Positions 4,154 to 37,136 of a stretch of DNA of 37,430 nt are shown here, piece by piece; positions within the stretch are counted from its first letter, which is position 1, and each line of letters starts with the position of its first letter. The stretch is from a virus (taxonomy: Duplodnaviria; Caudoviricetes). The notes under the pieces were generated by a model. It saw only the letters and a list, made by a program, of their open reading frames with translations. It made no database searches and had not been told where the DNA came from. The stretch is taken from the IMG/VR virus record IMGVR_UViG_3300033475_000094, positions 1-37,430 of that record; one strand, given 5' to 3'. The position numbers and the translations under genes were made by a program.

Positions 4154-4157
4154 TCAA

Positions 4158-4907
4158 TTATATTCCTAGTGCCGCCCAATATGCAGTTTGTGCAGTAGCG
4201 TTATTTGAAATAAGTGTAATAGTAGTTGAGTTTACTGACTGTACCGCAACGTGAGTTGCTGAATTGTTTGAAGTTGCAAATACCGCAAACGCATTGGTTA
4301 GGAATGCTGTACCAACAGTAGTTGAAAAGGTTGTGATCTGAGCAGTAGTATTAACCGTGGTCAGCGTTCCCCACATCAATTTTAAACCAGCAGGCATTGT
4401 CGCATAACCATTTGCTAGAGAAGCGGTATGGCCAGCAACGTTTGAGGTACCAAGGTTTAGAGTATTACCAGTTACTTGAACTGCTGAAGTGTTCGCAACG
4501 AAGAATGATGCAGTAGCATTACCGATATAGAGATTTGCCGCAGTGGATAAAATCGCTAGCGTAGAAGGCGTCATCACGATATTTGCGGTTGAATTGGCAA
4601 TTGTCTCGTAAACTGAGTTACCTGACATATTAGCAGTGGCGTTACCAGTTGACCATGAAGCTGCCGTGATGACAGTTTGGCCTGATGCGTTAGTAACAAT
4701 TAGGCTTGTTGAGTTAGCAGTAGAATTTACTGTGGAATTACCAGCAGTAAGGTTGTTTGCCAAAGCCACATTATTTGAAGCCAGAACAGGCGCAAAGGCG
4801 GCATAAAACTCCGAAAAGTTATTTTGAGTTTTGATAAATGCATTTCTTAGCGTATCACCAGTACCGTCGTTGGGTACTGTACCTACGTTAATGTTTTGTT
4901 GTGCCAT
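4158..4907 (-). CDS. baseplate/fibre protein with gp9/gp10-type N-terminus and tail-fibre-type C-terminal domain
   Basis: N-term INVGTVPNDGTGDTLRNAFIKTQNNFSEFY is the gp9/gp10 motif; C-term NGYATMPAGLKLMWG resembles tail-fibre tip domains. Confidence 0.7.
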   Translation of the reverse strand: MAQQNINVGTVPNDGTGDTLRNAFIKTQNNFSEFYAAFAPVLASNNVALANNLTAGNSTVNSTANSTSLIVTNASGQTVITAASWSTGNATANMSGNSVYETIANSTANIVMTPSTLAILSTAANLYIGNATASFFVANTSAVQVTGNTLNLGTSNVAGHTASLANGYATMPAGLKLMWGTLTTVNTTAQITTFSTTVGTAFLTNAFAVFATSNNSATHVAVQSVNSTTITLISNNATAQTAYWAALGI

Positions 4908-4924
4908 AGTGCTCTACGTTCCTC

Positions 4925-7249
4925 TTAGGTCTGGTCTACTGTCAGCAGTGCAGAATCACTTGTAACTGCGCTTGAATCCGCTGAGAATTGGGTATAAAGA
5001 ATTTCTTCGTCGATGGTATATTTAGCTGAATCAGCGTTAACAACCGACAGATCCGCTGTGAACCATAGCTGTACTGTTGGATCAGCAGTATTTGATTCAT
5101 ACGCAATAGTCAGAGGAGCGTCTTCAGCTGAAATGAGCTGGAATTCTCCAAAAAGCTCAGCACCCGCTGGATGGAATGTGTTATAAAGAATGTCTTTATA
5201 TTGTTCCAGTTGTGATGCTGCTTTAATTTGATATGAATAGTCTTGGTAAAAGAAGCTATCCTGGATATATTTATCCGAGTTTAGGAAGCCCTTCGTTGTG
5301 CTCCAATAACCCGGCGCCTTACCAACACCGCCTTTGATTACATGGGCGATAACTTGTGATGTAGTGTTGAATTGGACTAACGAACAAGTAAAGGAAGCAC
5401 CTGTGCCATTCTTGGATTGCACAGTTATTGTAGGGATTGAAGCAAGACCAGAACCTGCATATGTTATTGTGGTTGATGTAATAGTTCCATTTGCATCAGT
5501 TGTGACAAAACCAGTCGGTGTTGTACCATTACCACCTGAGAATACAAGAGCATCACCATTTGAATATCCTACACCGCCTGAGGTAATAACAGGATTCGAT
5601 ACCGCTGAATAGAGATAAAGTTCAACTGTTTCACCATCGACATAACCTTTACCTGAGTTGTAGATATCCACAGTACCGATGACTGAGTTGCCTGATGACG
5701 GAAATGCATCAACTAATGTGTTCAGACCATTTATTGATCCATCTGATGATACCATAAGAGGGTCTGGTGGTGTGAAATTCGCTGGGAAAATTGCAGGAGC
5801 CACATAGAATGCAGAAGTACCATTTGATGTATTGGTAGGCGGACCATACAAGGTAATTGATGTATCTGAATTGACCTGTTTTACTACCGCATATTCAATA
5901 CTGGTAGACAGGTTATTTGCTTGTAGAGCAATGTAACTATTGTTGGAAAAATACCAAGTGAAGTTAGTTCCTGATCCTGTTACAGTATTGGCAGCAGAGT
6001 TATAGTTCACACTACCAGGAAGAGCCAGAGAATTTTCAATTGACTCAACAAACGTATTTGCCACAACGGTATAACTGTTACCTGTCTGTATATTAGTTAG
6101 AGTAACAAGTGATCCGAAAGTATTGCTTGCCCACGATAGTGATGTACCAACATTTGATGTTAGATTGGCTACATTGTTAGCCGGTAAGTTGTATTGGCTG
6201 GCATTCAAGGTAGTCGTAAGATAATTTGCAATGACATCCGTATTGTACGTCACTGTTTGAGTATTAGAAATAGCACCAACGGCAAACGAAGCACCGGTTC
6301 CTGGCGTATTTCCATTACCTGGATATACTAATATTGTTGGGGATGAAGTAATACCAAATCCTGGCTTACGAACAGAGAAATTCAATGAACCGAACGCTTG
6401 GGTTAGGCTGCTAACACGAACAACGCCATTAATACCAAATGATACCACCGCATTATTGCTTAGATCATTGTGAACAATCGCTAGAATGTCACCAACATTA
6501 AACCCTTGACCGCCATTAACAATGCTAAGATCATTTAATGAGCCAGTGATGATTGGAGCCTTGCCGACAATATCAGCAAACATGGTTGATCCAAGAACAT
6601 CATGATCTACAATCTTCTCACCCTCGATGAATGCACCACCCTTTGGCTGCATATTTGAAATATACAGAGAAGCGACTAAGTTGTTGTTAATGGGTTCGGT
6701 AATATAGCTTTCAACAACCGCAGTGGTATTTGAGGATAACCCAATAATCGTTTTTCCTACGAAATTAGGCAGGAAATCTGTTTTCGTGACTTCAATATAT
6801 GTGGGTACAGTCCAAGTTCCATCACTGGGTGCAAGGAGGTCATTTCCAGGAAGATAGACATCGATGTCTTCATTATAGATGAGTTTGAAGAGCAGACGAT
6901 AACACTGAATTGATCCTTTGGATCTATATACATCCAAAATGTGCTTAAGCAGGAATCGTTTGTTAATAATGACATTGAATGGGATGCCATACAGATATTT
7001 TTTCTGGAAATGTTCCAGAAATGATTCAAGGGTGTTGTCAATATCTCTGTAATTTAGAAGATTACGAGATTGATATATGATGTTAGTTGAAGTTGCAACA
7101 TTATTTTCATATGTAGGACTATATGCCTGCTCAAGGAATTCATAATACGCCTGTACAAACAAAATGAAGTTCGGCCCCTCTGTCTTATAAAAGTCAGGAA
7201 ATTGAGAGGCAATGAACGGAGATATCTGTTTTTGGATATCAAATTGCAT
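4925..7249 (-). CDS. baseplate wedge initiator, gp7-like
   Basis: QFPDFY..FILFVQAYYEFLE, YRSKGS, KYIQDSFFYQDYSYQIK and HPAG motifs; directly downstream of gp6. Confidence 0.75.
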   Translation of the reverse strand: MQFDIQKQISPFIASQFPDFYKTEGPNFILFVQAYYEFLEQAYSPTYENNVATSTNIIYQSRNLLNYRDIDNTLESFLEHFQKKYLYGIPFNVIINKRFLLKHILDVYRSKGSIQCYRLLFKLIYNEDIDVYLPGNDLLAPSDGTWTVPTYIEVTKTDFLPNFVGKTIIGLSSNTTAVVESYITEPINNNLVASLYISNMQPKGGAFIEGEKIVDHDVLGSTMFADIVGKAPIITGSLNDLSIVNGGQGFNVGDILAIVHNDLSNNAVVSFGINGVVRVSSLTQAFGSLNFSVRKPGFGITSSPTILVYPGNGNTPGTGASFAVGAISNTQTVTYNTDVIANYLTTTLNASQYNLPANNVANLTSNVGTSLSWASNTFGSLVTLTNIQTGNSYTVVANTFVESIENSLALPGSVNYNSAANTVTGSGTNFTWYFSNNSYIALQANNLSTSIEYAVVKQVNSDTSITLYGPPTNTSNGTSAFYVAPAIFPANFTPPDPLMVSSDGSINGLNTLVDAFPSSGNSVIGTVDIYNSGKGYVDGETVELYLYSAVSNPVITSGGVGYSNGDALVFSGGNGTTPTGFVTTDANGTITSTTITYAGSGLASIPTITVQSKNGTGASFTCSLVQFNTTSQVIAHVIKGGVGKAPGYWSTTKGFLNSDKYIQDSFFYQDYSYQIKAASQLEQYKDILYNTFHPAGAELFGEFQLISAEDAPLTIAYESNTADPTVQLWFTADLSVVNADSAKYTIDEEILYTQFSADSSAVTSDSALLTVDQT

Positions 7250-9078
7250 TAGTTGAGCTTATTAATAACTGTTATTGAAATATCGTTTGAATCAATGATT
7301 AGAATCTTCGACAGATTGATTAGTATGTCAGGTGTTAGTGGTGTTAAATAAAGGCTAATGTAATTTCCGTAATCAGATGCAATGAGTTTATTAATGCTTA
7401 CGTCGCCTGTTGTGTAATTCACTGTACCGATAGCAGTATTAAGGATGGTGAATTGGTTGTTTATCAAAGTATACACAACCAAATTTCCCAGGCTGTCATC
7501 TCTTATGTATGACGCAGGCCATTGAACACCATTTGCATCTGTAAATGTAAATGGAGATGAAGTAACAACTGGATTACTGTCATATTTGTTGCCTTCATTT
7601 GTACCTGATGCACCTATCTCAATATCAGCAGCATTATTGAAACTAAATGCATATGAAGTAGCAAACCCAACAAAGGGTGAAAGTCGCTTGATAATTTGCA
7701 GATTGGTTTCATTTGAAGTGATTGATGTATCCGCATTGTCAATAGCAGATACGAATTTTGAAAATCTTAGATCACCATCAAACTTCTGAAGATTTGTTGA
7801 ACTATAATTGCTGATCGCAGTGACAACTAGCGATTTAATGTCATTTGCTAACAATGAGGTCGCTGTTTGGTCATATTGTACCGTTGAAGTAACACCACAA
7901 TATAGGTAGTCGGGATCCTGGATGATTAGGCGTGTTGGCAGCCCCATGTATTCAAGTAGGAAGTTAGAGATTTCAGCCTTTACGTAATCTGGCGCCACAG
8001 TGCCAGCTTGTGGTTGCAACACAGCAACAACTCGGCCGTATTTCTTCTCAGTTAGCAACTGACCGCCAAACGTATTAACATCCTTAATAACTCCACCGAA
8101 ATTATCTAGGATCAGTGCTGAATAGTCGTCAGATGCAAGAGCCCGTTCTTGTGTCGCAAAGTAACGAGGAGCACTGAAGCGGATTGATTCAATAGCTTCA
8201 GGTGGAGCCCCGCCCGCTGAATTTGAAGTTACTGTGACAGGACCAACAATGATACCAGCACCACCATTTGTATTGGATAGACCTGAAGTTAAAGTAAAGC
8301 TGGTAATACCGTCTGCCGTGTTGCCTGATGAAACACGGTAATTTGCCGTAACTAACGCCAGGTTATCAGGAAAACGACCAAAAAGGTTATCACCAAAAAT
8401 AAGCTCATATTGACCATTTTGTGCTGCCTGTAAGAAGTAAACTGTTGAATTTGAATTCAGATGGAATAGAGTGGACGCAAATGTGAAATTTGTATTCACT
8501 GCTGATTCTGTCACCGTAACAGTGAGTGAATTTAGATCAATATTTGGATTAGTTAGAACAAATTGCTGATTGTCATTGGTGTAATCCACGACGAATGTAT
8601 CAGTAATGTATACGCCTTCAAATAATTGAAGGTTAGTAATTGAGAAAATGTTATTGCCTGAGAAATAATTGGTCTGTTGTTGGGTGGTAAACGTGAACTG
8701 GCCGTTAGTGTTTACCCCAGTGAACAATGTTCCCTTTGGAATTATCAGAGGTGGCGTTAAACCAGTAGCAGTAATGTTGAATGCAATATTGGCGCTTGAA
8801 GAACGAGCTGATTGCGGTAGGTAATTAAGCTCTTTGGCATGTGAAACAACTGAATCCAGCTTTTGAGCTGAATCCAGGAACATCTCCGATGCGACCATGT
8901 TTAAATAAAAAGCATTCAGGTAGGAATTGTACGTTTGCACGTCGATTAGAACGTTCATGTTTGAATCAGTGAACGAATAATCTTTGAAGATTGTCTGAGT
9001 GCTTAAAAACTGGATATACGCTTGCTTTAACGTATCAAAGTCCAGCGATGTGATGGAGAGTGAGGTATTAGCGGCCAT
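7249..9078 (-). CDS. baseplate wedge subunit gp6
   Basis: LDFDTLK, FKDYSF, EMFLDSAQKLDSVVSHAKELNYLP, YELIFGD and FATQERA motifs of the T4 gp6 family. Confidence 0.92.
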   Translation of the reverse strand: MAANTSLSITSLDFDTLKQAYIQFLSTQTIFKDYSFTDSNMNVLIDVQTYNSYLNAFYLNMVASEMFLDSAQKLDSVVSHAKELNYLPQSARSSSANIAFNITATGLTPPLIIPKGTLFTGVNTNGQFTFTTQQQTNYFSGNNIFSITNLQLFEGVYITDTFVVDYTNDNQQFVLTNPNIDLNSLTVTVTESAVNTNFTFASTLFHLNSNSTVYFLQAAQNGQYELIFGDNLFGRFPDNLALVTANYRVSSGNTADGITSFTLTSGLSNTNGGAGIIVGPVTVTSNSAGGAPPEAIESIRFSAPRYFATQERALASDDYSALILDNFGGVIKDVNTFGGQLLTEKKYGRVVAVLQPQAGTVAPDYVKAEISNFLLEYMGLPTRLIIQDPDYLYCGVTSTVQYDQTATSLLANDIKSLVVTAISNYSSTNLQKFDGDLRFSKFVSAIDNADTSITSNETNLQIIKRLSPFVGFATSYAFSFNNAADIEIGASGTNEGNKYDSNPVVTSSPFTFTDANGVQWPASYIRDDSLGNLVVYTLINNQFTILNTAIGTVNYTTGDVSINKLIASDYGNYISLYLTPLTPDILINLSKILIIDSNDISITVINKLN

Positions 9079-9105
9079 TTCTTACCTGATTTGCTATCGA
9101 TCAGG

Positions 9106-9112
9106 TATTTAG
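9106..9112 (-). promoter_or_regulatory. T4-type late promoter (CTAAATA) for gp6
   Basis: CTGCTAAATACC occurs identically upstream of gp6 and gp25; resembles the T4 late TATAAATA box. Confidence 0.65.
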
Positions 9113-9128
9113 CAGAATTCTAGTCAAG

Positions 9129-9170
9129 AAAAAGCCGGTCGACTCCGGGGCTGACAGGTCGACCGGCTTT
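9129..9170 (-). terminator. intrinsic terminator of sRNA-B
   Basis: AAAGCCGGUCGAC..GUCGACCGGCUUUUU. Confidence 0.8.
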
Positions 9171-9238
9171 GTGCCACTACCAACAAAGGAGCCACCCCAC
9201 CGTTGGGGAGCCCGTTACCTACGTGGCGCTCGGTAACT
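9129..9238 (-). ncRNA. candidate trans-acting antisense sRNA (sRNA-B) with anti-leader/anti-SD seed
   Basis: Own promoter TTGACA-N12-CTGCTA (9241-9268), two 5' hairpins, unpaired CUCCUUUGUUGGUA, 13-bp terminator plus U-run; no plausible ORF. Confidence 0.7.
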
Positions 9239-9240
9239 AC

Positions 9241-9268
9241 ACAATAGCAGGTATACCATCCCTGTCAA
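9241..9268 (-). promoter_or_regulatory. early-type sigma70 promoter
   Basis: TTGACA-N12-CTGCTATTGT, same geometry as the early array. Confidence 0.75.
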
Positions 9269-9271
9269 GAT

Positions 9272-9382
9272 AAAAGCGGCTACAATCTCACAATGCAACC
9301 GCCTTTACCTCGAGAATATGTGTTTGAACGGTTCTGCACCATCTGGGCCTCGCGGCCTGATGGTTACTGCTTACATTCAGCC
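9272..9382 (-). ncRNA. candidate structured ncRNA (ncRNA-A)
   Basis: GTGCTACAAT -10 box, rod-like hairpin capped by a GGCC-GCGA-GGCC GNRA tetraloop, terminator GCGGUUGCA/UGUAGCCGC-UUUU. Confidence 0.45.
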
Positions 9383-9431
9383 TCTCCATTGTAGCACTGC
9401 AAACCGTTTGCAGCATCGATATCGTAGCAAA

Positions 9432-9857
9432 TTACCTAACACGTTTCAAGAGAATTGGTAAATTTATTACGTTGGGATTGTTCACAAGTTGAAAAACAAT
9501 GTTGACAGCAATGCCGTTATTATTAGGCGAGTCGAGCACAGTGAGATTAATGATGGTAATGCGTGGCTCAAACTGTCGAGCGCTAAGTGTTATTGCATTG
9601 CGAATGTCTTCTATGAGAAACGGTGTGTCGAGCTCAAACATAGATTGCACTACATTAGTGCCAAAGAAAGGCTGGAAAAAACGACCAAAAACTGCTGTAT
9701 AAACGAGATTCTTGAAAGCTTGTCGTACAGCATCTTCATTCTTCAATACGACGAGCTGATTTGTAATTGGATGCTTGACCAAATTGTTCGAGAAGTCAGA
9801 ATAGGTTTCTATCTTCTTCTGCGTTTGTGTTATAAGATCAGCGCGACTAATTGACAT
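9432..9857 (-). CDS. baseplate wedge subunit gp25
   Basis: YSDF..HPIT..KNEDAVRQAFKNLV..RFFQPFFG..FEPRI: gp25 family. Confidence 0.92.
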   Translation of the reverse strand: MSISRADLITQTQKKIETYSDFSNNLVKHPITNQLVVLKNEDAVRQAFKNLVYTAVFGRFFQPFFGTNVVQSMFELDTPFLIEDIRNAITLSARQFEPRITIINLTVLDSPNNNGIAVNIVFQLVNNPNVINLPILLKRVR

Positions 9858-18171: not shown

Positions 18172-18290
18172 GCTCTCCTTCGTTATGTCGCCACTGTAGC
18201 AGCTTCCACAGCAGAGTCAACCCAAAAAGGAATGAAAATGTATCAAAAGATATTGCGGTGCAAAAGGGCGGAGTACTCCGCCCTTGCTTT

Positions 18291-21151: not shown

Positions 21152-21240
21152 TGTGTCGCTCCTTAGTTGGTATCCGCAGAATAGCACGGCCCGAACTAGA
21201 GTCAAACACTTTTTCAAACGGAAGGTGTTGCACCGCAATA

Positions 21241-21417
21241 TTATTTGATGCGGCGCTTGTACTTGGTTAGGCCCGACGAGAGGATGACGTAGTAGAATTC
21301 AGCGTCTGCGGGGGCATGCTGGGTTTCGTAGAGATAGGCGTCCCGAAACTGCTGGCCCTGCTTCAGGCGCTCCTCGTACTCCTCCCTCGTTAGGGTCTTA
21401 GGCTTCCGTTTTGCCAT
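21241..21417 (-). CDS. hypothetical protein (MAKRKPKTLT...)
   Basis: Start at ATG 21417 within the tail of the upstream ORF. Confidence 0.55.
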   Translation of the reverse strand: MAKRKPKTLTREEYEERLKQGQQFRDAYLYETQHAPADAEFYYVILSSGLTKYKRRIK

Positions 21418-21869: not shown

Positions 21870-22016
21870 TTGGGCGGTTCCTGTTTTGGGTAGTAAGGGG
21901 AAGCCTTTTGGACTTCCCCCTCCGGGCCCTGTAACGTCCCAGCTGTCACGTGTACCGTAGCATGGGCTGACGCAGAGTCAAACACTTTTTCAAATGAAGA
22001 TGTTGCAATGCACAAA

Positions 22017-22280
22017 GAAAAAGCCCTGGACTAGAGCCAGAGCTGTGCTTAAACCACCAAAAGAGCCATTATGAAACCTTCGAACCCAAAGTCAACTTTG
22101 GATCTTCTAACTCCGTAAAGTGAACCCCTACGGGGCCTTCACTTCGTTACGGCCATTCTTCGAATAACCGAAGTGATTTATATGATCAAGGGTTTTACGG
22201 CTTAGGTAAAACCCATTAGCACTCATGTTTAAAACATGATCACGTGGAATTTATTTCCACAACTAACGATCGGCACTTGA
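22017..22280 (-). ncRNA. hairpin-dense non-coding element; candidate sRNA (or origin-like region)
   Basis: At least 6 short inverted repeats, 3' segment GGCUCUUUUGGUGGU..GCACA similar to the sRNA-B seed, terminator at 22017-22044. Confidence 0.4.
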
Positions 22281-22943: not shown

Positions 22944-23303
22944 CTAAGCGGCCTCCCGTTGCTCCTTATTAGCTTTCTTCGCTTTCGCAGCCTCGTCGAG
23001 CTGCTTCCAATACTTGACGATGCGGGAGTAGCCAGTCCGTTCGGAACGCTTTACCCACTTCTGTACGACCCAATCGGGCAAGCACCCATCCTTCAGGTAC
23101 TTCTTGGCACCCAGACAGCCTCCAAAGCCATCCGCCCCCGTAAATCCAACGCCGTTATCAACGTTGGTGGTGTTGGCGTCCTTTTCAGCTGCTGTCTGCC
23201 TCTTAAAGAGCACGACAAGGGCCCTTCCAACCGTATGCATCTGGATGTCGCCACCCTGGTCAATGAGGGCCTGGAGGAAATCACGGGTTACGAGGTGGGT
23301 CAT
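22944..23303 (-). CDS. hypothetical early protein
   Basis: Perfect leader TACCAACAAAGGAG; RQT..E...T...NGVGF motif. Confidence 0.8.
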   Translation of the reverse strand: MTHLVTRDFLQALIDQGGDIQMHTVGRALVVLFKRQTAAEKDANTTNVDNGVGFTGADGFGGCLGAKKYLKDGCLPDWVVQKWVKRSERTGYSRIVKYWKQLDEAAKAKKANKEQREAA

Positions 23304-23393
23304 TGGGATAACTCCTTTGTTGGTATGCCCACGATAGCACAGTTTGGAGTAATGTCAAACAGTTTTTCAAGTTTTTTTTGTGTTTTTTATAGT

Positions 23394-23428
23394 CGTCAGG
23401 GGCCTCCGGGTCCTAAGGTTTGGACCGT
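23394..23428 (-). ncRNA. promoter-proximal conserved RNA motif, copy 1
   Basis: ACGGUCC-AAACCUUA-GGACCCGGAGGCCCCUGACG directly after promoter 23440-23467; no ORF. Confidence 0.55.
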
Positions 23429-23511
23429 CACCCATGCTAACCATAGCATGGGATGATATAATGTCAAGCCACAAAAGGAAACGGGGGCTCCAAGGCCCCC
23501 TTGCTCCTCCC

Positions 23512-23718
23512 TTACATGCTCCAGTAGGTTTCGGAGCTCGGATCGCAGCACAGCGGCGTGTCGACCGGGATGCGGACGAGATTGCCGGACATGAGGTTGG
23601 TGACCACCTTGGTCTGGACGCCCTGCTCGTACTGTTCCTCCATGCTGCGGGCGAAGTCGACGCTGCGGCGAGCGTGGCGGACGAGGCGAGCATGCTTAAC
23701 TTGGCGGGACTTGGACAT
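23512..23718 (-). CDS. hypothetical early protein (MSKSRQVK...CCDPSSETYWSM)
   Basis: Promoter 23769-23796; GGAG..CCCAAATG; followed by terminator 23474-23502. Confidence 0.75.
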   Translation of the reverse strand: MSKSRQVKHARLVRHARRSVDFARSMEEQYEQGVQTKVVTNLMSGNLVRIPVDTPLCCDPSSETYWSM

Positions 23719-23828
23719 TTGGGTTGCTCCGGTAAAGCACCGGGATGGTGCTCTTTGTTGGTATTCGGACCCTAGCACGGATTGATATAGAGTCAACCCA
23801 TAAAGGCCTTGCACCGCAGCAAACGGGT

Positions 23829-24137
23829 TTACTTGCGGCCGCCCTTTTCCCACTTTTGCACCGCAGCAACCAACTCCTCATGGAAATAGTCACCCCGCAT
23901 CGTGCGCTTGATGTCAATACCTCCAAGGAGGCCAAATACCAGAACCCGGGTGGCGGGATTGTAGAAGCCCGGAATATCACTTGACTTCTTGAGCTTTTCG
24001 TGGTTGGTGACTTGGTCACCGTCCAGGGTTGCGATGGCGGTCTCTGTGATGCCATCCTCCGTCCAGCTGAAGTGCACAGTGTAGAAGTGCAGGCCGCCGG
24101 AGCCGTTGCGGTGAGAGACGATTTGGTGAATTTTCAT
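23829..24137 (-). CDS. hypothetical protein
   Basis: AGGAG RBS. Confidence 0.7.
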   Translation of the reverse strand: MKIHQIVSHRNGSGGLHFYTVHFSWTEDGITETAIATLDGDQVTNHEKLKKSSDIPGFYNPATRVLVFGLLGGIDIKRTMRGDYFHEELVAAVQKWEKGGRK

Positions 24138-24146
24138 GTCAATCTC

Positions 24147-24215
24147 CTAGTGCATGAGGCAGGCGACGATGAAGAAACCGACGAACGCAATAACGGCAGT
24201 GTGCCAGGTGGGCAT
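24147..24215 (-). CDS. 22-aa hydrophobic peptide (not in track)
   Basis: GAGGAG RBS; MPTWHTAVIAFVGFFIVACLMH fills the intergenic gap. Confidence 0.45.
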   Translation of the reverse strand: MPTWHTAVIAFVGFFIVACLMH

Positions 24216-24220
24216 TGAAC

Positions 24221-24478
24221 TTACTCCTCTTCGATGGGTTTGTCAAGTGTCATGGGGCGTATTTCAACCCTGAGAGGAGCATCCTCCCAGATGTGCATCA
24301 AGTCACCTGTCATCATGGTGTCAAGGGCAAACTCGATCACCGTGTCCTCGTCGAAGTCGAAATAGGGTGCGGAACGTACGATGGCGGTACCTTCCTCCAG
24401 TGCCTTTTCCAGGCTGGAGTAGATGCCATACTCCATCTCGCCTTCGTAGCTCACGCAAAGCAGGTATTGGGTAATCAT
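24221..24478 (-). CDS. acidic hypothetical early protein
   Basis: Cassette promoter 24504-24531, CCAACAAGGAG leader. Confidence 0.75.
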   Translation of the reverse strand: MITQYLLCVSYEGEMEYGIYSSLEKALEEGTAIVRSAPYFDFDEDTVIEFALDTMMTGDLMHIWEDAPLRVEIRPMTLDKPIEEE

Positions 24479-24542
24479 CTTCGTTCTCCTTGTTGGCGAC
24501 CACATGCTAGCACGAAGCGATGCAGAGTCAACAGCATATTTG

Positions 24543-24575
24543 AAAAAAGTGGCCAGGGCTTTTACACCCTGGCCC
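24543..24575 (-). terminator. intrinsic terminator
   Basis: GGCCAGGG/CCCTGGCC followed by AC and U6. Confidence 0.7.
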
Positions 24576-24585
24576 AGTTGCCCAA

Positions 24586-24858
24586 TTACTCCTCGTCGTC
24601 CTCCAATTCTTCCTCGTCCTCGTCCTCCACTTGGGAACGCAGGGCCTCGATCGTATCCTCCATATTGGTGTTGTGCCCCACGTACATGTGGTCATCGTCC
24701 AGGGACATCACCAGGTGCCCGTACCAGTATGCACGAGCACGCTCGTATTCGCTTGTACCACGAACGATCTCCATGGCCTCCTGGGCCAGGTTCTTGATCT
24801 TGTTCTTGATCTCTTCCAGACGTTCAACGTCCGAAGCCTTTGGGATATTGTTGGGCAT
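24586..24858 (-). CDS. acidic-tailed hypothetical early protein
   Basis: Cassette promoter 24888-24915; leader AACAAACAAAGGAA. Confidence 0.8.
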   Translation of the reverse strand: MPNNIPKASDVERLEEIKNKIKNLAQEAMEIVRGTSEYERARAYWYGHLVMSLDDDHMYVGHNTNMEDTIEALRSQVEDEDEEELEDDEE

Positions 24859-24928
24859 TGGGTGTTCCTTTGTTTGTTAGTGCTGACACTGTAGCACAAA
24901 ACGGCACAGTGTCAAACACTTTTTCAAA

Positions 24929-25165
24929 CTATCTTGCGGTGATGATCACAACGCTTGCGCACTGCGAGGCGTCGAAGTCCTTGTCGTCCTCGTCCACCAC
25001 CTTACACATATTGTGGTAGGATGAGTGCTTGACATAGCCCTCGTCGACGTTCTCCGCAATGGGAGCAACTTGGGTATGCCAGTGATCCCCATAGTTGTAT
25101 GCGAAGTGAACCTCCGCCTCGGGATCCATCTGCTGGAGTTCGGAAATGAGCTCTTCAACGGTCAT
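24929..25165 (-). CDS. hypothetical early protein (MTVEELISELQQMDPEAEV...)
   Basis: Cassette promoter 25199-25226; common phage MTV.EL...L...DP N-terminus. Confidence 0.8.
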   Translation of the reverse strand: MTVEELISELQQMDPEAEVHFAYNYGDHWHTQVAPIAENVDEGYVKHSSYHNMCKVVDEDDKDFDASQCASVVIITAR

Positions 25166-25257
25166 TTGGGCTGTTCCTTTTGTTTGCTTAGTGTCGCCAC
25201 TGTAGCACGGGACGACACTAAGTCAAATAGTTTTTCAAATATTGGTGCTGCGGTGCA

Positions 25258-25521
25258 TTATATCTTCATGCCCACGCGAGCAACGACAACACGGCAGAAG
25301 CGCTTGGGATGGACCCCACCCACATAGCGTGCAGTGACGATAACGCACCCAAGCTTCTTCAAATCGTATTCGTCGAGGTGGGACACATTACGCCAACCAG
25401 TCTCTCGCAACTGCTTTGGAACTTCACTGACTGGCATGCCCCAGAACTTGCCGCCGGCCTCGGTTTGGTAACGGCCAGGCCAGTTGAGCACTGCCTTGAT
25501 AATTGCCTGCTTGGTAAGCAT
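25258..25521 (-). CDS. hypothetical early protein
   Basis: Cassette promoter 25549-25576. Confidence 0.75.
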   Translation of the reverse strand: MLTKQAIIKAVLNWPGRYQTEAGGKFWGMPVSEVPKQLRETGWRNVSHLDEYDLKKLGCVIVTARYVGGVHPKRFCRVVVARVGMKI

Positions 25522-25594
25522 TGGATCTCTCCTTGTTGGTGTGCCCCTACGATAGCACACCAAACCCAATTGTCAAACGTTATTTCAAATTATT

Positions 25595-25960
25595 TCAGGG
25601 CTTCCACTTGTAGTTGGGGTCGTACTCCCTGTTGATCCGCTGGATGCCCTCGAAGGCGAGTTCGCTGTGGGTTTTTGTTTTGTCAAGCTTAATCTTGCCC
25701 TTCTTGGTAGCCTTGCGGATGTCGCGGACATGGTGTCCCCATGTCTTGCCGCCGTCGAAGGAGAACTGGGTATAGCCAATGCTCTTCAGCTTGCGAACGA
25801 GCATGCCATACGTGCTCTCATGGAACTTGAAGCCTCGTTCCCATGACCCGCTCTGCCCGCTTGTCGTGTTCTTGCCGACAGTGGCCTCAAAGTTACGAAC
25901 CTTCACTTTCTTGCCCTGATTGGCAAGGTAGAATTCCTTAGTATGTTGAAACTTGGGCAT
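25595..25960 (-). CDS. basic hypothetical early protein
   Basis: Cassette promoter 25987-26014. Confidence 0.8.
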   Translation of the reverse strand: MPKFQHTKEFYLANQGKKVKVRNFEATVGKNTTSGQSGSWERGFKFHESTYGMLVRKLKSIGYTQFSFDGGKTWGHHVRDIRKATKKGKIKLDKTKTHSELAFEGIQRINREYDPNYKWKP

Positions 25961-26031
25961 CTTCGTTCTCCGTTGTTGGTATGCAGACACTAGCACACAT
26001 CGACACAGAGTCAAACGTTATTTCAAACAAA

Positions 26032-26265
26032 TTATTTCTTCAGATGGACCTCGTTGGGGTCGACTTCTCGGCCGGCCTGTGTTACATACCAGCCGTCGTT
26101 CCCGTCGGTCACCTTGCAGCCCACATAGCCATCGTTCTCCAGGGTACGCAGGGCACGTCGCACCCTGGACCACGTTGAGTTAATCTCCATTGCTATGTCA
26201 GCTGAGCTGGTGGGCCAACGACCAGGAGCTCTGAGGTAGATGAGTACAGCACGACCAATGTTCAT
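26032..26265 (-). CDS. small winged-helix DNA-binding protein
   Basis: TSSADIAMEINSTWSRVRRALRTLENDGYV + beta-wing ending WYVTQAG; AAGGAGG RBS. Confidence 0.7.
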   Translation of the reverse strand: MNIGRAVLIYLRAPGRWPTSSADIAMEINSTWSRVRRALRTLENDGYVGCKVTDGNDGWYVTQAGREVDPNEVHLKK

Positions 26266-26267
26266 TG

Positions 26268-26555
26268 TCAACCCTCCTTCAGGATGCCAAACAGGGCCCA
26301 CTTGCCAATGCGGGGCCACTCAGCCCAGCTGTGCTTGCACTTGCAGACACGAAGATCGGTGTACTTGTCAAGCTGAATATACTCATGTGCAGCGGCCCAG
26401 TCATAATCGAAATACTTGACTTCCCGATCCGGGTTAACCGCATACACCGTACCCAGCATGTTCTCCCACAACAGGGGTTTATGTTTCTGGGTATAGGACT
26501 TTTTGGCTCTGGAAGCACCTGCGAACACGTCGCTGGGTTGGGGCTTCTTGGGCAT
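26268..26555 (-). CDS. hypothetical early protein
   Basis: Cassette promoter 26587-26614. Confidence 0.75.
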   Translation of the reverse strand: MPKKPQPSDVFAGASRAKKSYTQKHKPLLWENMLGTVYAVNPDREVKYFDYDWAAAHEYIQLDKYTDLRVCKCKHSWAEWPRIGKWALFGILKEG

Positions 26556-26660
26556 TGGGTAACTCCTATTGTTTGTTGGTACGCTATCAATAGCACACTA
26601 AGAAACAATGTCAACCCGAAGAATGGAGCGGGGAGCCTTTTTAGGGGCTCCCCTTTTCCG

Positions 26661-26942
26661 TTACTCCGCCGAGGGCTCGAGCGCATTGCGCTCCTTCATG
26701 TTGCTGAGCACTTCCCAGGTGTCGAAGCACTGCTTCTGCATGGGCTTGCTGGCGGCGAGCGTCTTGTACGCCGCAACCAGGGCGCCGGCCTTGATGTGCT
26801 CGGCGATCTTGGCCGCAGCCTTCGCCGCAGTGCCGAAGCGCTTGGCAGCGTTCTTGTCCTCGGACTTCTTGGCGAGGCGGGCATTGCGACGCTCGACACG
26901 GCCAGCGAGTTCGATGTGACGGGTGGGATTGAAGATCTGCAT
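26661..26942 (-). CDS. Ala/Lys-rich hypothetical early protein
   Basis: Cassette promoter 26996-27023; leader CCAACCAACCAACAGAAGGAG. Confidence 0.75.
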   Translation of the reverse strand: MQIFNPTRHIELAGRVERRNARLAKKSEDKNAAKRFGTAAKAAAKIAEHIKAGALVAAYKTLAASKPMQKQCFDTWEVLSNMKERNALEPSAE

Positions 26943-27042
26943 GGTGTAACTCCTTCTGTTGGTTGGTTGGATTTACGTCTCTGCTTACATTTCCGACTTT
27001 AGCACCTATTTGAGCAATGTCAAATAGTATTTCAAACTTTTT

Positions 27043-27318
27043 TCAGTCCTGGTCAGTACGCCCGACCCACTTGAGACTGCACACACCTGGAAAGAAGGAT
27101 TGGGTATGTCCGTCCATCTTAACGTAAATGCGGCCAGTGCTGCCACCGTGCCTCGGGAGCTCGATGCTCTCCAGCTCGCAAACCTCATTGCGGAACGTCT
27201 GGAGGATATCACCGGGCTTGGCTTCAATCCCTGTCGTCTCGTGTACAAGCTTGGGCACGAGGTAAGGCTGGGATTGGGTGTTCTGCGGTCCCATTGGATG
27301 GATCACTTTGCGCTTCAT
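27043..27318 (-). CDS. hypothetical early protein
   Basis: Cassette promoter 27408-27435; GGAG..CCCAAATG. Confidence 0.75.
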   Translation of the reverse strand: MKRKVIHPMGPQNTQSQPYLVPKLVHETTGIEAKPGDILQTFRNEVCELESIELPRHGGSTGRIYVKMDGHTQSFFPGVCSLKWVGRTDQD

Positions 27319-27450
27319 TTGGGCTCTCCGTTGCGGGGCTTAGCTAATACCATAAGTCCAAACTGGACTAGCACTAACTAAGCCCCTGTGTTTGCTTTAA
27401 CTCGTCCACTGTAGCACAGTTTGGAACAATGTCAAATAGTATTTCAAATA

Positions 27451-27705
27451 TTATGTCACAACGTGGGACGTTATTTCCCACGTCCAGCTGCCGTCATCGT
27501 TGACGTAGCTAACCCAAGCGCCGTCGCCGCCTGTGTAATGTGTTACAGCCTCATCAAACGGAGCAGCGTCATCGTCGCCCTCTGCCTCGTCGCTATAGCA
27601 GCGCTTCATATCCTCCAGGGCAAGCTCCTGGGTAGCGAAGACGTCAATAACGCCTGCACAATCCTCGTCTAGAGTCTTGCACACTAGCACCCAAACCTTC
27701 GTCAT
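27451..27705 (-). CDS. acidic hypothetical early protein (MTKVWVL...)
   Basis: Promoter TTGCGT-N17-CATAAT 27731-27759; AACAACAGGAG leader. Confidence 0.75.
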   Translation of the reverse strand: MTKVWVLVCKTLDEDCAGVIDVFATQELALEDMKRCYSDEAEGDDDAAPFDEAVTHYTGGDGAWVSYVNDDGSWTWEITSHVVT

Positions 27706-27845
27706 TGCTGCTCTCCTGTTGTTATGCTTCATTATGGCACGTATTTGAAAAATACGCAAGCCTTTTTTCAAATTATTTTTCAAACTTTTTTGTTGACATT
27801 ACTTCGTAACGTGCTATGCTGTTGGGACAACAAAGGAGAAGCCCA

Positions 27846-28055
27846 ATGTCCACATTTAGCGATGAGTTTGCGGAGAAGCTGTTCGAGGTATTCGACACAG
27901 CTAAGGAAGAAAAGGTTGCAGAGCTATACAAGCTCCTAGCGGACTATCGCAGCACCTATCCACGAAGCTATGCCAAGTTGAAGACAAAGCCCTTTAGCGG
28001 GGCTGTGATTATTGCTGTAGAGGAAGCCCACAATTATCTTAATGAGGTGGGTTGA
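27846..28055 (+). CDS. hypothetical early protein (MSTFSDEF...)
   Basis: + strand cassette promoter 27793-27820, ACAACAAAGGAG leader. Confidence 0.8.
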   Translation: MSTFSDEFAEKLFEVFDTAKEEKVAELYKLLADYRSTYPRSYAKLKTKPFSGAVIIAVEEAHNYLNEVG

Positions 28056-28114
28056 CATTGTATCGTTTCGTGCTACCCTAGCTGTACGTTGCATATAGCA
28101 GCGGGCTAGGGTGC

Positions 28115-28149
28115 ACGGCCCAAACCTTAGGGCCCGGAGCGGCCTGATG
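28115..28149 (+). ncRNA. promoter-proximal conserved RNA motif, copy 2
   Basis: ACGGCCC-AAACCUUA-GGGCCCGGAGCGGCCUGAUG after promoter 28052-28079. Confidence 0.5.
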
Positions 28150-28257
28150 GGCTGATTTCATCAACGATGGGCAAATGATCTTTCCCCTGTGGGCTGTCAA
28201 CCCTGGCTCAGGAGATTGGAGTATACGGATGGATTATGGACTATCTAGCGTCTCAAG

Positions 28258-28479
28258 TCAAGCCTCCTCGGGGCCCCAATCGCCCCATTTTTCAAACGTG
28301 CCATGTGCGTAAGTAACGAAACCCCGCACCTCAGTCCCATCAGGAGCAACCACAACGGAAGCTGTATGCTTACCCTTGCGATACGTTATGGTTTTGGACC
28401 CTGCGGGTGCATGCAGTGCCCCGGGTATAACGAGGCCCCACTGCTTAAACCCGCTTGCTTCCAAATGCTTTATGTTCAT
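28258..28479 (-). CDS. hypothetical early protein (MNIKHLE...)
   Basis: Cassette promoter 28504-28531; AACAACAAAAGGAG leader. Confidence 0.75.
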   Translation of the reverse strand: MNIKHLEASGFKQWGLVIPGALHAPAGSKTITYRKGKHTASVVVAPDGTEVRGFVTYAHGTFEKWGDWGPEEA

Positions 28480-28588
28480 AACAAAGCTCCTTTTGTTGTT
28501 CCCATAGTAGCACAAAACTATTTCAAGTCAAATGTTTTTTCAAACTATTTGCACTTGACATTATCTCATCCTGTGCTACTCTATGCGT

Positions 28589-28627
28589 ACGGTCCCCACA
28601 GCAATGCAGACCCGGAGGCCCCTGACG
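28589..28627 (+). ncRNA. promoter-proximal conserved RNA motif, copy 3
   Basis: ACGGUC..GACCCGGAGGCCCCUGACG (19 nt identical to copy 1) after promoter 28555-28582. Confidence 0.55.
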
Positions 28628-28810
28628 GCTGTATTCCATGATACGGGGAACCCAGATACCCTAGAGTAACATAAGTCCAATCTCCAGTCAACCCCACGAC
28701 AAAAAAGAAGATTGTGCAGTGCAAGGCCTAATATTTGAAAAAATGTTTGACGTTATTTCGTTTTGTGCTATACTCTACGGACAATAAGGGAACTAAAGGA
28801 GTTACCCAAA

Positions 28811-29119
28811 ATGTACAGCCCAAAGCTAGCCAATGCGCTTGCCGCTGTAATCACAGCCCACGACGGGTTGGATGTGGCGATGCGCCTATTGTCCCAAGCG
28901 GACGTCACCAAGATTATGAACGATTCTGGATATACAGATCGTTACACAACGACACAGTTCCTCGAGAAGAACGAGGATACCAATACGTACATCTACGGGA
29001 TCGCATTCCCAAATGCAGATGAACCCGGCAAGATGGACTATGGCAGGGTGTATATCGGAGCCCTGGTGACGTTTGATGAGGACTTTCAGGTCCAAATTGA
29101 GCTCAAAGGCGACTACTGA
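28811..29119 (+). CDS. hypothetical early protein (MYSPKLA...)
   Basis: Promoter 28747-28774; AAAGGAG..CCCAAAATG. Confidence 0.8.
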   Translation: MYSPKLANALAAVITAHDGLDVAMRLLSQADVTKIMNDSGYTDRYTTTQFLEKNEDTNTYIYGIAFPNADEPGKMDYGRVYIGALVTFDEDFQVQIELKGDY

Positions 29120-29327
29120 TTGCTGTCGCAACCGGGCGTTGAATTGATTGAGTAAAGGGATGAAGAATCCCTTCATGATTCAACGTCCAAATTGGGAGAA
29201 GATTGATGATCTGGAAATACCGTCAAAATTTAAAGCCAGGGGTTTCGGTCCCTGGCGTAACATTCTACACAGTCTTTCGTGCCTCATTCAGGCTGAGATT
29301 GAGAGCCTGGATTTGGCGAACATTCGC

Positions 29328-32147: not shown

Positions 32148-33137
32148 TTAGTCGTTGCCGGCGGCTTTGAGGGCGGCCTGCTTGGCCTTGTCGACACCTG
32201 CCAAGATGTCGTTGAGACCTGACGCCGACATGCTGCGGACCGACTTCATCAATGATGCGAGACGATCATCTTTCGGCAGCAGAGCCGATTGCTTGACGTC
32301 ACGAATCGCTTTCACCATGTCTTTCTGGTCATCCTGTTGGTCTTTTTTCATTCCGGCGGGATTGCCAGTGATGATTGCGACAGGAGTGCAGGCCGTTGTC
32401 GCCGTCTTGGCCGATGCGATCCAACCACCATCCGTCAGTGTATATGACTGAATGGAATATAGATCCTGGCCGTCGATCTTCGCATTGGCAATCTCTCGAG
32501 AGACTACCGGCACGATGATGAGACTGCGATCTTGCATCAGCTTGATATTGGCATTGCGGGGATCGGCAAATTGGACGAAGAAGCCGACAGCCCGATCGTT
32601 GCCGGCAGCCACAGTTTCGATCACCGCCTTGGCATCAGCGACATTGCGAATGTTCTTCGCTCTGCCGAGACCATCAGGATCCAGCGATTGCACGAATTGG
32701 AAGGATGCAGCCGATCCCGATGCCGCGGCCGGCAGCACGAATGGAGTACGACGAGATCCGAGGATATCGCCGAAATTGGAGATAGTCGTGTTCTTGGTGA
32801 CCATCCACAAGCCTTCGCAGGCGATGTCACTGCGGATGACAGTCAGCTTGTCCTTGTAGTCGGGATGGGCTACCTGTTCACGGGCATAGACGTCAAGCTG
32901 AACGAAGCCGATGTCTGTCGGTGTCGCGAGCACCTTCTGGATATTCTCCATCGTGCCGCCTGACGTGGCACACTTGTAGTTTGGAAAATCCTTGTTGGCG
33001 AGTGCTTCCGGCAAGGGTGGACAGAAGGTGCTGTGATATGCACCAGAGTCGCTGCCAGTCCAGATCTTGCCACCATCAGCATAAGCTGAAGTGGATGCAA
33101 GGGCCATTGCCAGCCCCGCAATAACGAATAGTTTCAT
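32148..33137 (-). CDS. TAXI-family (TRAP) solute-binding-like periplasmic protein
   Basis: Signal peptide; TG..SGAY, TSGGTMENI, DIGFVQLDV and SGSAAS motifs of TAXI SBPs. Confidence 0.75.
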   Translation of the reverse strand: MKLFVIAGLAMALASTSAYADGGKIWTGSDSGAYHSTFCPPLPEALANKDFPNYKCATSGGTMENIQKVLATPTDIGFVQLDVYAREQVAHPDYKDKLTVIRSDIACEGLWMVTKNTTISNFGDILGSRRTPFVLPAAASGSAASFQFVQSLDPDGLGRAKNIRNVADAKAVIETVAAGNDRAVGFFVQFADPRNANIKLMQDRSLIIVPVVSREIANAKIDGQDLYSIQSYTLTDGGWIASAKTATTACTPVAIITGNPAGMKKDQQDDQKDMVKAIRDVKQSALLPKDDRLASLMKSVRSMSASGLNDILAGVDKAKQAALKAAGND

Positions 33138-36977: not shown

Positions 36978-36994
36978 TCAGGAATTTCAATAAT

Positions 36995-37136
36995 AAAAAA
37001 AGGGCCGCTCCCAAAGAAGCGGCCCAAGGCTAGGGAGGAAACGCCCAAGGAGGGTAACAGAAGATTACAAGAACAGACGTCCACAACAAACAAAGGACTA
37101 TGGGAACTTGTAACCAACCAGTACGTCCCAACGGAC
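36995..37136 (-). ncRNA. candidate trans-acting sRNA (sRNA-C) with anti-leader loop and several anti-SD motifs
   Basis: Promoter TTGACG-N17-TATATT (37143-37171), terminator GGGCCGCUUC/GGAGCGGCCC-U7, loop UCCUUUGUUUGUU, plus CCCUCCUU, UUCCUCCC and GUUCCC. Confidence 0.7.

What the first reader, a model, noticed from the sequence alone, without database searches (positions are those of the whole stretch)
23394..28627. Three copies of an unnamed promoter-proximal RNA motif with stem covariation
Three cassette promoters (23467 minus, 28052 plus, 28555 plus) drive no ORF. Their transcripts instead contain ACGGYC(C)-loop-(G)GRCC-CGGAG..CCUGAYG. The stem co-varies (GGUCC/GGACC vs GGCCC/GGGCC), the loop is AAACCUUA in two copies and different in the third, and GACCCGGAGGCCCCUGACG is identical in copies 1 and 3. 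A partial echo (GGGCCCGGAGG) is in the leader near 21920-21930. Possible roles (inference): put/nut-like antitermination RNA, protein-sponge RNA, SD-bearing decoy for the anti-SD sRNAs, or a scaffold with a variable guide loop.
Basis: seen in the sequence. Interest (0 to 1): 0.7.

Follow-up and report, generated by a model that had tools for sequence, protein, structure and literature searches.

The report
Four-copy phage small RNA cassette family
A T4-like soil-type phage that likely infects alphaproteobacteria carries four related copies of a 35-39-base motif, found in no RNA family library we searched; three sit right behind predicted strong early promoters with no protein gene, and they likely make small RNAs that are swapped in and out like accessory genes and would act as decoys for a host RNA-binding protein, though neither expression nor a partner has been shown.

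Summary
The motif is real: 3 matches, 0 in 100 shuffles. A fourth, diverged copy lies at 9328-9362, and the 21.9-kb echo is a true partial copy (11 nt; 0 of 116 control leaders reach 9). Copies 1-3 follow predicted cassette promoters with no SD-led ORF; copy 3 starts at the predicted +1. The region is a PeSL-like cassette island of a T4-superfamily phage. In related strains copy 1 is replaced, and copy 3's body is kept behind several different promoter spacers. The stem 'covariation' is one compensated pair (p about 0.006 by an anchored test; not significant by column shuffling). That hairpin is predicted to form co-transcriptionally in copies 1-3 but to persist only in copy 1; copy 2 refolds into an 18-bp 5'/3' clamp. 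No homologue was found outside this phage lineage, and no Rfam family matches. Put-like antitermination, an SD decoy, hammerhead and TPP fit poorly. Best reading: paralogous early small RNAs acting in trans as protein decoys (0.4). Expression and partner are untested.

The parts
23440..23467 (-). Predicted cassette promoter of copy 1 (TTGACA, TGC-TATGGT); predicted +1 at G23433
   Evidence: spacer 10 of 13 identical to copy 3's promoter, among the top 6 of 153 pairs
23394..23428 (-). Copy 1 core (35 nt): ACGGTCC-loop-GGACC-CGGAG-GCCC-CTGACG, followed by the A-rich upstream region of the next promoter. The cassette is replaced by 480 other letters in a related strain.
28052..28079 (+). Predicted cassette promoter of copy 2; predicted +1 at A28086
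28086..28222 (+). Predicted copy 2 RNA (about 137 nt): 5' hairpin, 18-bp interrupted clamp 28103-28122 / 28190-28209, single-stranded tail
   Evidence: 5'/3' duplex -34.2 kcal/mol, 3 of 1000 shuffles as good; one strain variant diverges after 28222
28115..28149 (+). Copy 2 core (35 nt); strain allele T>C at 28128 in the loop
28555..28582 (+). Predicted cassette promoter of copy 3; spacer replaced in strains while -35 and -10 are kept
28589..28627 (+). Copy 3 core (39 nt); its first base is the predicted +1
28629..28646 (+). Candidate hairpin directly after the copy 3 core (CTGTAT/ATACGG); its 3' strand is replaced by a same-length block in one strain contig
   Evidence: sequence; loose end at 28639; local fold
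9328..9362 (+).
   Evidence: (block score 30.0; next independent site 17.8)
21920..21930 (-). Partial copy (AGGGCCCGGAG) 17 nt after the predicted +1 of promoter 21981, followed by a GGGG..CCCC terminator-like hairpin
28211..28220 (+). Copy 2 tail GGAGATTGGA, exact complement of 28676-28685 downstream of copy 3
   Evidence: 28 of 2000 shuffles reach 10 nt
28676..28685 (+). TCCAATCTCC downstream of copy 3; on the other strand it lies in the spacer of a promoter-like site at 28691(-)

Best explanation
The four copies are paralogues of one motif that likely form the shared core of small non-coding RNAs, predicted to be made from strong early promoters, and that would act in trans as decoys binding a host (or phage) RNA-binding protein. 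Shown: the motif, its paralogy, its place behind consensus promoters without an SD-led ORF (copies 1-3), and cassette-wise gain, loss and promoter swapping between strains. Inferred: transcription right after infection by the host sigma-70-type polymerase; a GGYY/GRCC hairpin that forms first and, in copy 2, gives way to a 5'/3' clamp; recognition of the invariant ACGG..C and CCUGAYG blocks by a protein; variable loops and flanks as stabilising or specificity-tuning parts. The partner is unidentified; an anti-phage defence or RNA-decay factor is the likeliest class, because the neighbouring cassettes are accessory early genes.
For: Modular conservation: copies 1 and 3 share 7 of 7 and 19 of 19 bases in two blocks, but have unrelated loops and 9 of 30 downstream bases; neutral decay should not look like this. 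Copies 1 and 2 differ at only two of their first 25 bases, and these are the two partners of one stem pair (chance 0.006). Copy 3 starts at base 7 after the -10 hexamer, where the phage's ORF leaders start. Strain contigs (one study) keep copy 3's body with no listed change over 28572-28658 while 7 of 10 spacer bases change. They show it behind a further spacer (X4) and fused to copy 2's promoter (X2, joint 28069-28573). Copy 1's cassette is replaced wholesale, as expected for PeSL-type accessory cargo (PMC2839356). Little lies downstream in cis for three of the four copies. Precedent for RNA decoys encoded by phages: Racrs (PMC10651486) and pseudo-ToxI (PMC3475682).
Against: No expression data. 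No homologue outside this lineage, so covariation rests on four paralogues and a few alleles; column shuffling gives 179 of 500. Folding z-scores are weak (-1.6 to +1.5 for the sense-strand stretches), and no single fold is shared by all copies. The RNA bodies are not clearly better conserved than neighbouring coding DNA: copy 2 has 4 changes in 144 nt, against 17 in 505 nt for 28796-29300 (difference). One variant deletes 4 nt at 28203 inside the outer clamp. Copy 4 has no -35 box. No copy ends in a U-tailed terminator. No host RNA that the motif would mimic was found.
Confidence: 0.4

Rival explanations
1. Duplication relic: a promoter cassette and its downstream bases were copied and homogenised by recombination, with no RNA function.
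For: Cassettes recombine at promoters (joints). The promoters of copies 1 and 3 share ancestry (25 of 34 bases). Strain conservation is not above coding DNA. The motif is narrow in distribution.
Against: Block-wise identity with unrelated loops, a compensated pair (0.006), a fourth diverged copy 14 kb away that keeps both end blocks and the 35-nt length, and a promoter kept intact through spacer swaps.
Confidence: 0.15
2. Base-pairing small RNAs (or sense/antisense pairs) in which the core is a scaffold and loops or tails pair with mRNAs or with each other.
For: The phage carries other sRNAs (mmgR/suhB; an anti-leader RNA at 9268). Copy 2's tail is complementary over 10 nt to the region after copy 3 (28 of 2000). 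Promoter-like sites at 28261(-) and 28691(-) face copies 2 and 3.
Against: No U-tailed terminator after any copy. The conserved bases are in predicted stems and GC-rich, not in open seeds. No pairing with the phage's anti-SD RNAs above shuffles. Host mRNA targets could not be tested because the host is unknown.
Confidence: 0.13
3. Cis-acting nascent-RNA element that modifies elongating RNA polymerase, like HK022 put.
For: Promoter-proximal. The GGYY/GRCC hairpin is predicted at p 0.7-1.0 right after synthesis in copies 1-3. A second hairpin can follow. Copy 1 points into a long co-oriented gene block (2868 nt sense-coded in the next 5 kb).
Against: Copies 2-4 point mostly into antisense DNA. 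Downstream cassettes have their own promoters. Copy 1 is absent from a strain that keeps the next gene. Copy 4 is not predicted to form the hairpin.
Confidence: 0.12
4. Ribosome-related decoy: the core mimics the 16S rRNA shoulder (h13 3' strand plus h15), or traps 30S subunits on an SD with a dead start.
For: The two invariant blocks chain best on 16S 329-391 in all 4 rRNA operons tested; for E. coli 0 of 300 Markov controls reach the score. Copy 2 shares 12 nt with Rhizobium 16S (13 of 500 shuffles). CGGAG is followed after 7 nt by ATG (copy 2) or ACG (copies 1, 3).
Against: In the three alphaproteobacterial operons, the likely host group, 63-128 of 300 controls reach the score. The best exact rRNA matches of the four copies fall on different places and strands. 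The lead was post hoc. Copy 4 has no SD.
Confidence: 0.09
5. DNA-level element: an R-loop replication origin (promoter plus unwinding element, as T4 oriE/F/G) or a protein-binding site just downstream of the promoter.
For: T4 origins use a promoter and an A+T-rich downstream element and lie near transcription strand switches (PMC3016281). Copy 1 is followed by an A-rich tract; copies 2-4 lie near strand switches.
Against: T4 origins share no local sequence motif (same review). Only copy 1 has an A+T-rich downstream tract, and it is the upstream region of the next promoter. Compensated and G-U pairs point to single-stranded pairing.
Confidence: 0.08
6. Micro-peptide genes (xGPNLR-like frame in copies 1 and 2).
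For: The T/C difference between copies 1 and 2 at motif position 5 and the strain allele at 28128 are synonymous in that frame. Three cores have equal length.
Against: Copy 3 shifts frame between the blocks. Copy 1's ATG precedes the predicted +1. There is no SD. Third codon positions are invariant while second positions vary.
Confidence: 0.03

Closest known systems
PeSL cassettes of T4-type phage hyperplastic regions (PMC2839356: passages and section 16; PMC4122927: first third of the text)
   Same: Repeated sigma-70-like promoters with AT-rich flanks and GGGG..CCCC stem-loops flank small orphan genes; strain contigs show insertion, deletion and replacement at these promoters.
   Different: The cargo here is an ORF-less motif rather than an ORFan. 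In the passages read, no RNA cargo is described ('small RNA' and 'non-coding' occur 0 times in PMC2839356).
Racrs, RNA anti-CRISPRs (PMC10651486: abstract and section 5)
   Same: Solitary small RNA unit in an intergenic phage region with its own promoter; a model for how this could work.
   Different: Racrs resemble CRISPR repeats; no Rfam family matches this motif and no host original is known.
pseudo-ToxI of phage PhiTE and type III antitoxins (PMC3475682, PMC5086642: passages)
   Same: Unit of about 35 nt; an H-type pseudoknot (GGYY/GRCC plus loop-YAG/CUG) can be drawn on all four copies.
   Different: ToxI units are tandem repeats cut by the toxin; these copies are dispersed, GC-rich and single. 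The second stem is weakly supported (loop shuffles 0.09, 0.34, 0.86, 0.11).
HK022 putL/putR (PMC9378689: passages)
   Same: Downstream of early promoters; more than one related copy per genome; hairpin predicted to form on the nascent RNA.
   Different: put is about 70 nt with two fixed stems, upstream of operons that need read-through; three of four copies here face antisense DNA. put sequence similarity was not tested directly.

Membership tests
PeSL-type cassette (context) | Repeated strong sigma-70-like promoters in a hyperplastic small-gene region of a T4-type phage | tested here: met
   26 consensus promoters in the window; T4-type baseplate genes
PeSL-type cassette (context) | Stem-loop terminator joined to the promoter | tested here: inconclusive
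   Terminator-like hairpins precede some promoters, including copy 1's (23483-23500), but none was found before those of copies 2 and 3
PeSL-type cassette (context) | Cargo gain and loss by exchange at promoters | tested here: met
   Joints 23305-23472, 23818-24154, 24250-24537 and 28069-28573 with 7 shared letters; contigs of one study
Racr | Sequence and structure of a CRISPR repeat | tested here: not met
   No Rfam family on any core at E up to 10; that Rfam holds CRISPR-repeat models is recalled; host arrays not available
Racr | Inhibits CRISPR interference | not testable with these tools
   needs a host with an active system
Type III antitoxin mimic (pseudo-ToxI) | Tandem array of 34-36-nt repeats | tested here: not met
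   Copies are single and dispersed
Type III antitoxin mimic (pseudo-ToxI) | H-type pseudoknot | tested here: inconclusive
   Can be drawn; post hoc product of loop shuffles for copies 1, 3, 4 is 0.009, single copies not significant
put-type antiterminator | Lies upstream of co-oriented genes behind terminators | tested here: not met
   Met for 1 of 4 copies
put-type antiterminator | Binds the beta-prime zinc-binding domain and suppresses termination | not testable with these tools
   bench test
Hammerhead ribozyme | CUGAnGA, stem II, GAAA (consensus recalled) | tested here: not met
   Only copy 1 has CUGACGA, with no stem II; copies 2-4 have G at that position and no GAAA downstream; no Rfam hit
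TPP riboswitch | Match to RF00059 | tested here: not met
   0 matches at E up to 10; control rang in 13 of 14 genomes
Hfq-type base-pairing sRNA | Intrinsic terminator with U tail (feature recalled) | tested here: not met
   None directly after copies 1-3; the nearest for copy 2 is 28270-28286; copy 4 judged from the sequence only
T4 R-loop origin | [quoted passage not shown] | tested here: inconclusive
   A-rich tract after copy 1 only

The most novel reading that the evidence does not exclude
The four paralogues are phage-made mimics of the 16S rRNA shoulder (the h13 3' strand and the h15 hairpin in one small switchable RNA) that draw a ribosome-reading host factor, such as a translation-arresting defence protein or a translational GTPase, away from ribosomes in the first minutes of infection: an rRNA-mimic class of phage counter-defence RNA.
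Probability: 0.07. Interest if true: 0.85.

Novelty: new variant of a known kind. Interest (0 to 1): 0.47.

Why it matters
If transcribed and functional, this shows that the shuffled early cassettes of T4-type phages carry paralogous RNA families as cargo, not only orphan proteins. It gives a compact, testable object: a 35-nt core in four natural versions with swappable promoters, ready for pull-down in alphaproteobacteria, where phage counter-defence RNAs did not come up in our literature searches. Its value is limited for now by the narrow distribution and the lack of expression data or a partner.

Tried and rejected
Homologue searches, all without an outside member. Exact patterns in viral contigs: 0 of 7 and 0 of 16, both judged by eye from the flanks; 1 of 40, the same phage's other contig G001. 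Metagenomes: 2 of 40 loci were the window's own record, and 0 of the other 38 had a promoter upstream. Two scans returned exactly 40 rows and may be capped. Bacterial genomes: 0 of 8, by eye. blastn against phages and plasmids: only chance-level hits. Covariance model R1 (copies 1-3): 0 of 20 records, 0 of 65 loci, 0 of 48 records. R1 also misses copy 4, so these blanks are weak. A relaxed pattern hit 1 of 49 records, G001. A block-score scan of 983 kb and 961 kb of other phage loci reached at most 20.5 and 24.6 against 30-31 for the copies, none behind a promoter in the second set. The gp25-gp6 gap of the closest relatives L009 and L012 has promoters but no motif. A four-copy model was not built because MAFFT misaligned copy 4. 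Expression: no RNA holder listed; this is no evidence either way. Run X5 (small share) was not used. Antisense match of copy 1 to 23S 1921-1931: 33-48 of 500 shuffles, not shared by other copies; rejected. K-turn, SRP domain IV, CsrA site, preQ1 and pistol likenesses were considered from memory and dropped by inspection; no Rfam hit supports them. Supplements of PMC10690425 (candidate structured RNAs in phages): six motif words absent from 6 files, but files 1, 2 and 4 could not be searched, so the motif may be listed there. Full-text search for two motif words with 'phage' and 'small RNA' gave one unrelated paper. Earlier findings of this scan: none by place or by sequence.
Full report
Setting. 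The window is a 37.4-kb fragment of a T4-superfamily myovirus. Baseplate wedge genes lie at 2615-9857; the nearest cultured phages (phiM12, Cr30) are only 36-37% identical in gp6. A suhB/mmgR RNA whose plasmid matches are alphaproteobacterial makes such a host likely. From about 9.9 to 29.3 kb lies an island of small genes. The window has 26 promoters of one consensus, TTGAC-N14/15-TGCTA-N3-T; 16 of the 26 lead to an SD-led ORF of 40 codons or more within 70 nt. Contigs of related strains, all from one study, show whole cassettes deleted or replaced at these promoters. This is how PeSL cassettes of T4-type phages behave (PMC2839356, passages and section 16; PMC4122927, first third; the lead came from earlier finding e1-9964745).

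Observation. The three copies are present as described and far beyond chance. A looser pattern finds a fourth at 9328-9362(+), in the gp25-gp6 gap (3 matches, 0 in 100 shuffles). A three-block score, built from the four copies, gives 30-31 for them and 17.8 for the next independent site. Copies 1, 2 and 4 are exactly 35 nt from ACGG to CTGAYG; copy 3 is 39. Copy 4 keeps both end blocks but replaces CGGAG, so the invariant core is ACGG..C, GRCC and CCTGA.G. The echo at 21920-21930 shares 11 nt with copy 2; none of 116 control leaders shares more than 8, and 25 of 3000 shuffles reach 11. It is a partial copy.

Transcription (predicted). The seventh base after the -10 hexamer is where the phage's ORF leaders begin, mostly with AC. 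By that rule copy 3's RNA begins at the motif's first base (28589), copy 1's at 23433 and copy 2's at 28086. Copy 4 has only an extended -10. In strain contigs copy 3's body shows no listed change over 28572-28658 while 7 of 10 bases of its promoter spacer differ; it also appears behind another spacer and fused to copy 2's promoter. The promoter is thus kept while its spacer is swapped. Against over-reading: copy 2's body has 4 changes in 144 nt, similar to neighbouring coding DNA (17 in 505 nt), so the RNA bodies are as conserved as genes, not more.

Selection. Copies 1 and 3 descend from one cassette (promoter 25 of 34 identical) yet share 7 of 7 and 19 of 19 bases in two blocks with unrelated loops and 9 of 30 bases downstream. 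Copies 1 and 2 differ at two of their first 25 bases, and these are partners of one stem pair; random pairs of changes do this in 0.6% of trials. Column shuffling on three rows is uninformative (179 of 500). I put the chance that this is a real RNA family under selection at about 0.75 (judgement).

Structure (unresolved). Full-length copy 2 closes an 18-bp interrupted 5'/3' clamp that uses ACGGCCCA (mean p 0.94; 3 of 1000 shuffles). The same test is not significant for copies 1, 3 and 4 (525, 559, 158 of 1000), and one strain variant deletes 4 nt of the outer clamp. An H-type pseudoknot can be drawn on all copies, and the 28128 allele turns a U-G into C-G in its second stem, but loop shuffles give 0.09-0.86 per copy. 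One low-depth strain contig replaces the 9 nt after 28639 with a same-length block. That removes copy 3's long-range partner and would be a fully compensated hairpin if three of its four unlisted changes lie at 28631, 28633 and 28634; I could not see those letters.

Distribution. No outside member was found in viral, metagenome or genome pattern scans, in cultured phages or plasmids, or with a covariance model (counts and limits under Tried and rejected). The model misses copy 4, and two scans may be capped, so absence is weak. No Rfam family covers a core even at E 10.

Mechanism. Cis action fits badly: the 5 kb after copies 2, 3 and 4 is mostly antisense-coded, and a strain lacking copy 1 keeps the next gene. 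HK022 put, by contrast, is about 70 nt, two-stemmed and upstream of early operons (PMC9378689, passages). The SD-decoy idea fails its own test, while the 9268 RNA pairs with the real early leaders. Hammerhead and TPP features are not met. What remains is a strongly promoted, dispensable, multi-copy RNA with an invariant core and variable periphery, which is the anatomy expected of a protein decoy. Phage RNA decoys are known: Racrs (PMC10651486, abstract and section 5) and pseudo-ToxI (PMC3475682 and PMC5086642, passages). This motif is a member of neither. I give the decoy reading 0.4; relic 0.15; base-pairing RNA 0.13; put-like 0.12; ribosome-related decoy 0.09; origin or DNA site 0.08 (PMC3016281, passages); micro-peptide 0.03.

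One unexplained result. The two end blocks chain best on 16S rRNA 329-391 in all four operons tested. For E. coli no control of 300 reaches the score, but for three alphaproteobacterial operons 63-128 do. Exact rRNA matches of single copies scatter over different sites. Helix names h13 and h15 are recalled. This is probably chance, but it is the most novel reading not excluded (0.07).

Verdict. Observation confirmed and extended to four copies; interpretation partly supported. An uncatalogued, lineage-restricted motif carried as RNA cargo in PeSL-like cassettes; not met in the literature searches run (three supplement files of PMC10690425 unseen). Interest 0.47.

Noticed in passing
window 9120-9234 (-), promoter 9268: ORF-less, terminator-closed RNA (fold z -2.64) with a 14-nt exact complement of the early leader of cassette 23358 and 8-11-nt complements of 9 other early leaders: a candidate c4-like antisense shut-off RNA for the phage's own early genes.
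   Followed up: partly
window 36988-37062 (-): Phage-borne suhB/mmgR sRNA above the Rfam cut-off; plasmid matches are mainly Methylobacterium and Azospirillum, pointing to an alphaproteobacterial host.
   Followed up: partly
window 22020-22062 (-), promoter-like 22095: Short ORF-less promoter-to-terminator unit with a CATAAT -10; the same TTGACT..CATAAT type faces copy 2 at 28261(-), and the CATAAT word survives in a diverged strain contig.
   Followed up: no
window 28211-28220 and 28676-28685 (+): 10-nt exact complement between the tail of copy 2 and the region after copy 3; no strain change listed in either. My note gave the second stretch one base too low.
   Followed up: partly
window 18242-18263, 21228-21249, about 23810, 25248, 28715: A TGCRGTGCAA-like word recurs upstream of several cassette promoters (and by eye): possible activator or repressor site; a small winged-helix gene lies at 26032-26268 (below cut-off).
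   Followed up: no
L009 1150-1560 (same in L012): A related phage (gp6 73-79% identical) also has promoters and ORF-less stretches in the gp25-gp6 gap, plus an inserted ORF.
   Followed up: partly
window 27330-27400 (-): The leader of cassette 27435 holds a long GGGGCTTAG/CTAAGCCCC hairpin before its ORF.
   Followed up: no
window 22944-23303 (-): The 119-aa protein next to copy 1 belongs to a widespread unnamed phage family with 23 invariant columns in 21 sequences; no Pfam match.
   Followed up: partly
window 32148-33137 (-): 329-aa protein with weak NMT1/phosphonate-binding hits below cut-off and phrog_6856, followed by small membrane-looking genes.
   Followed up: no
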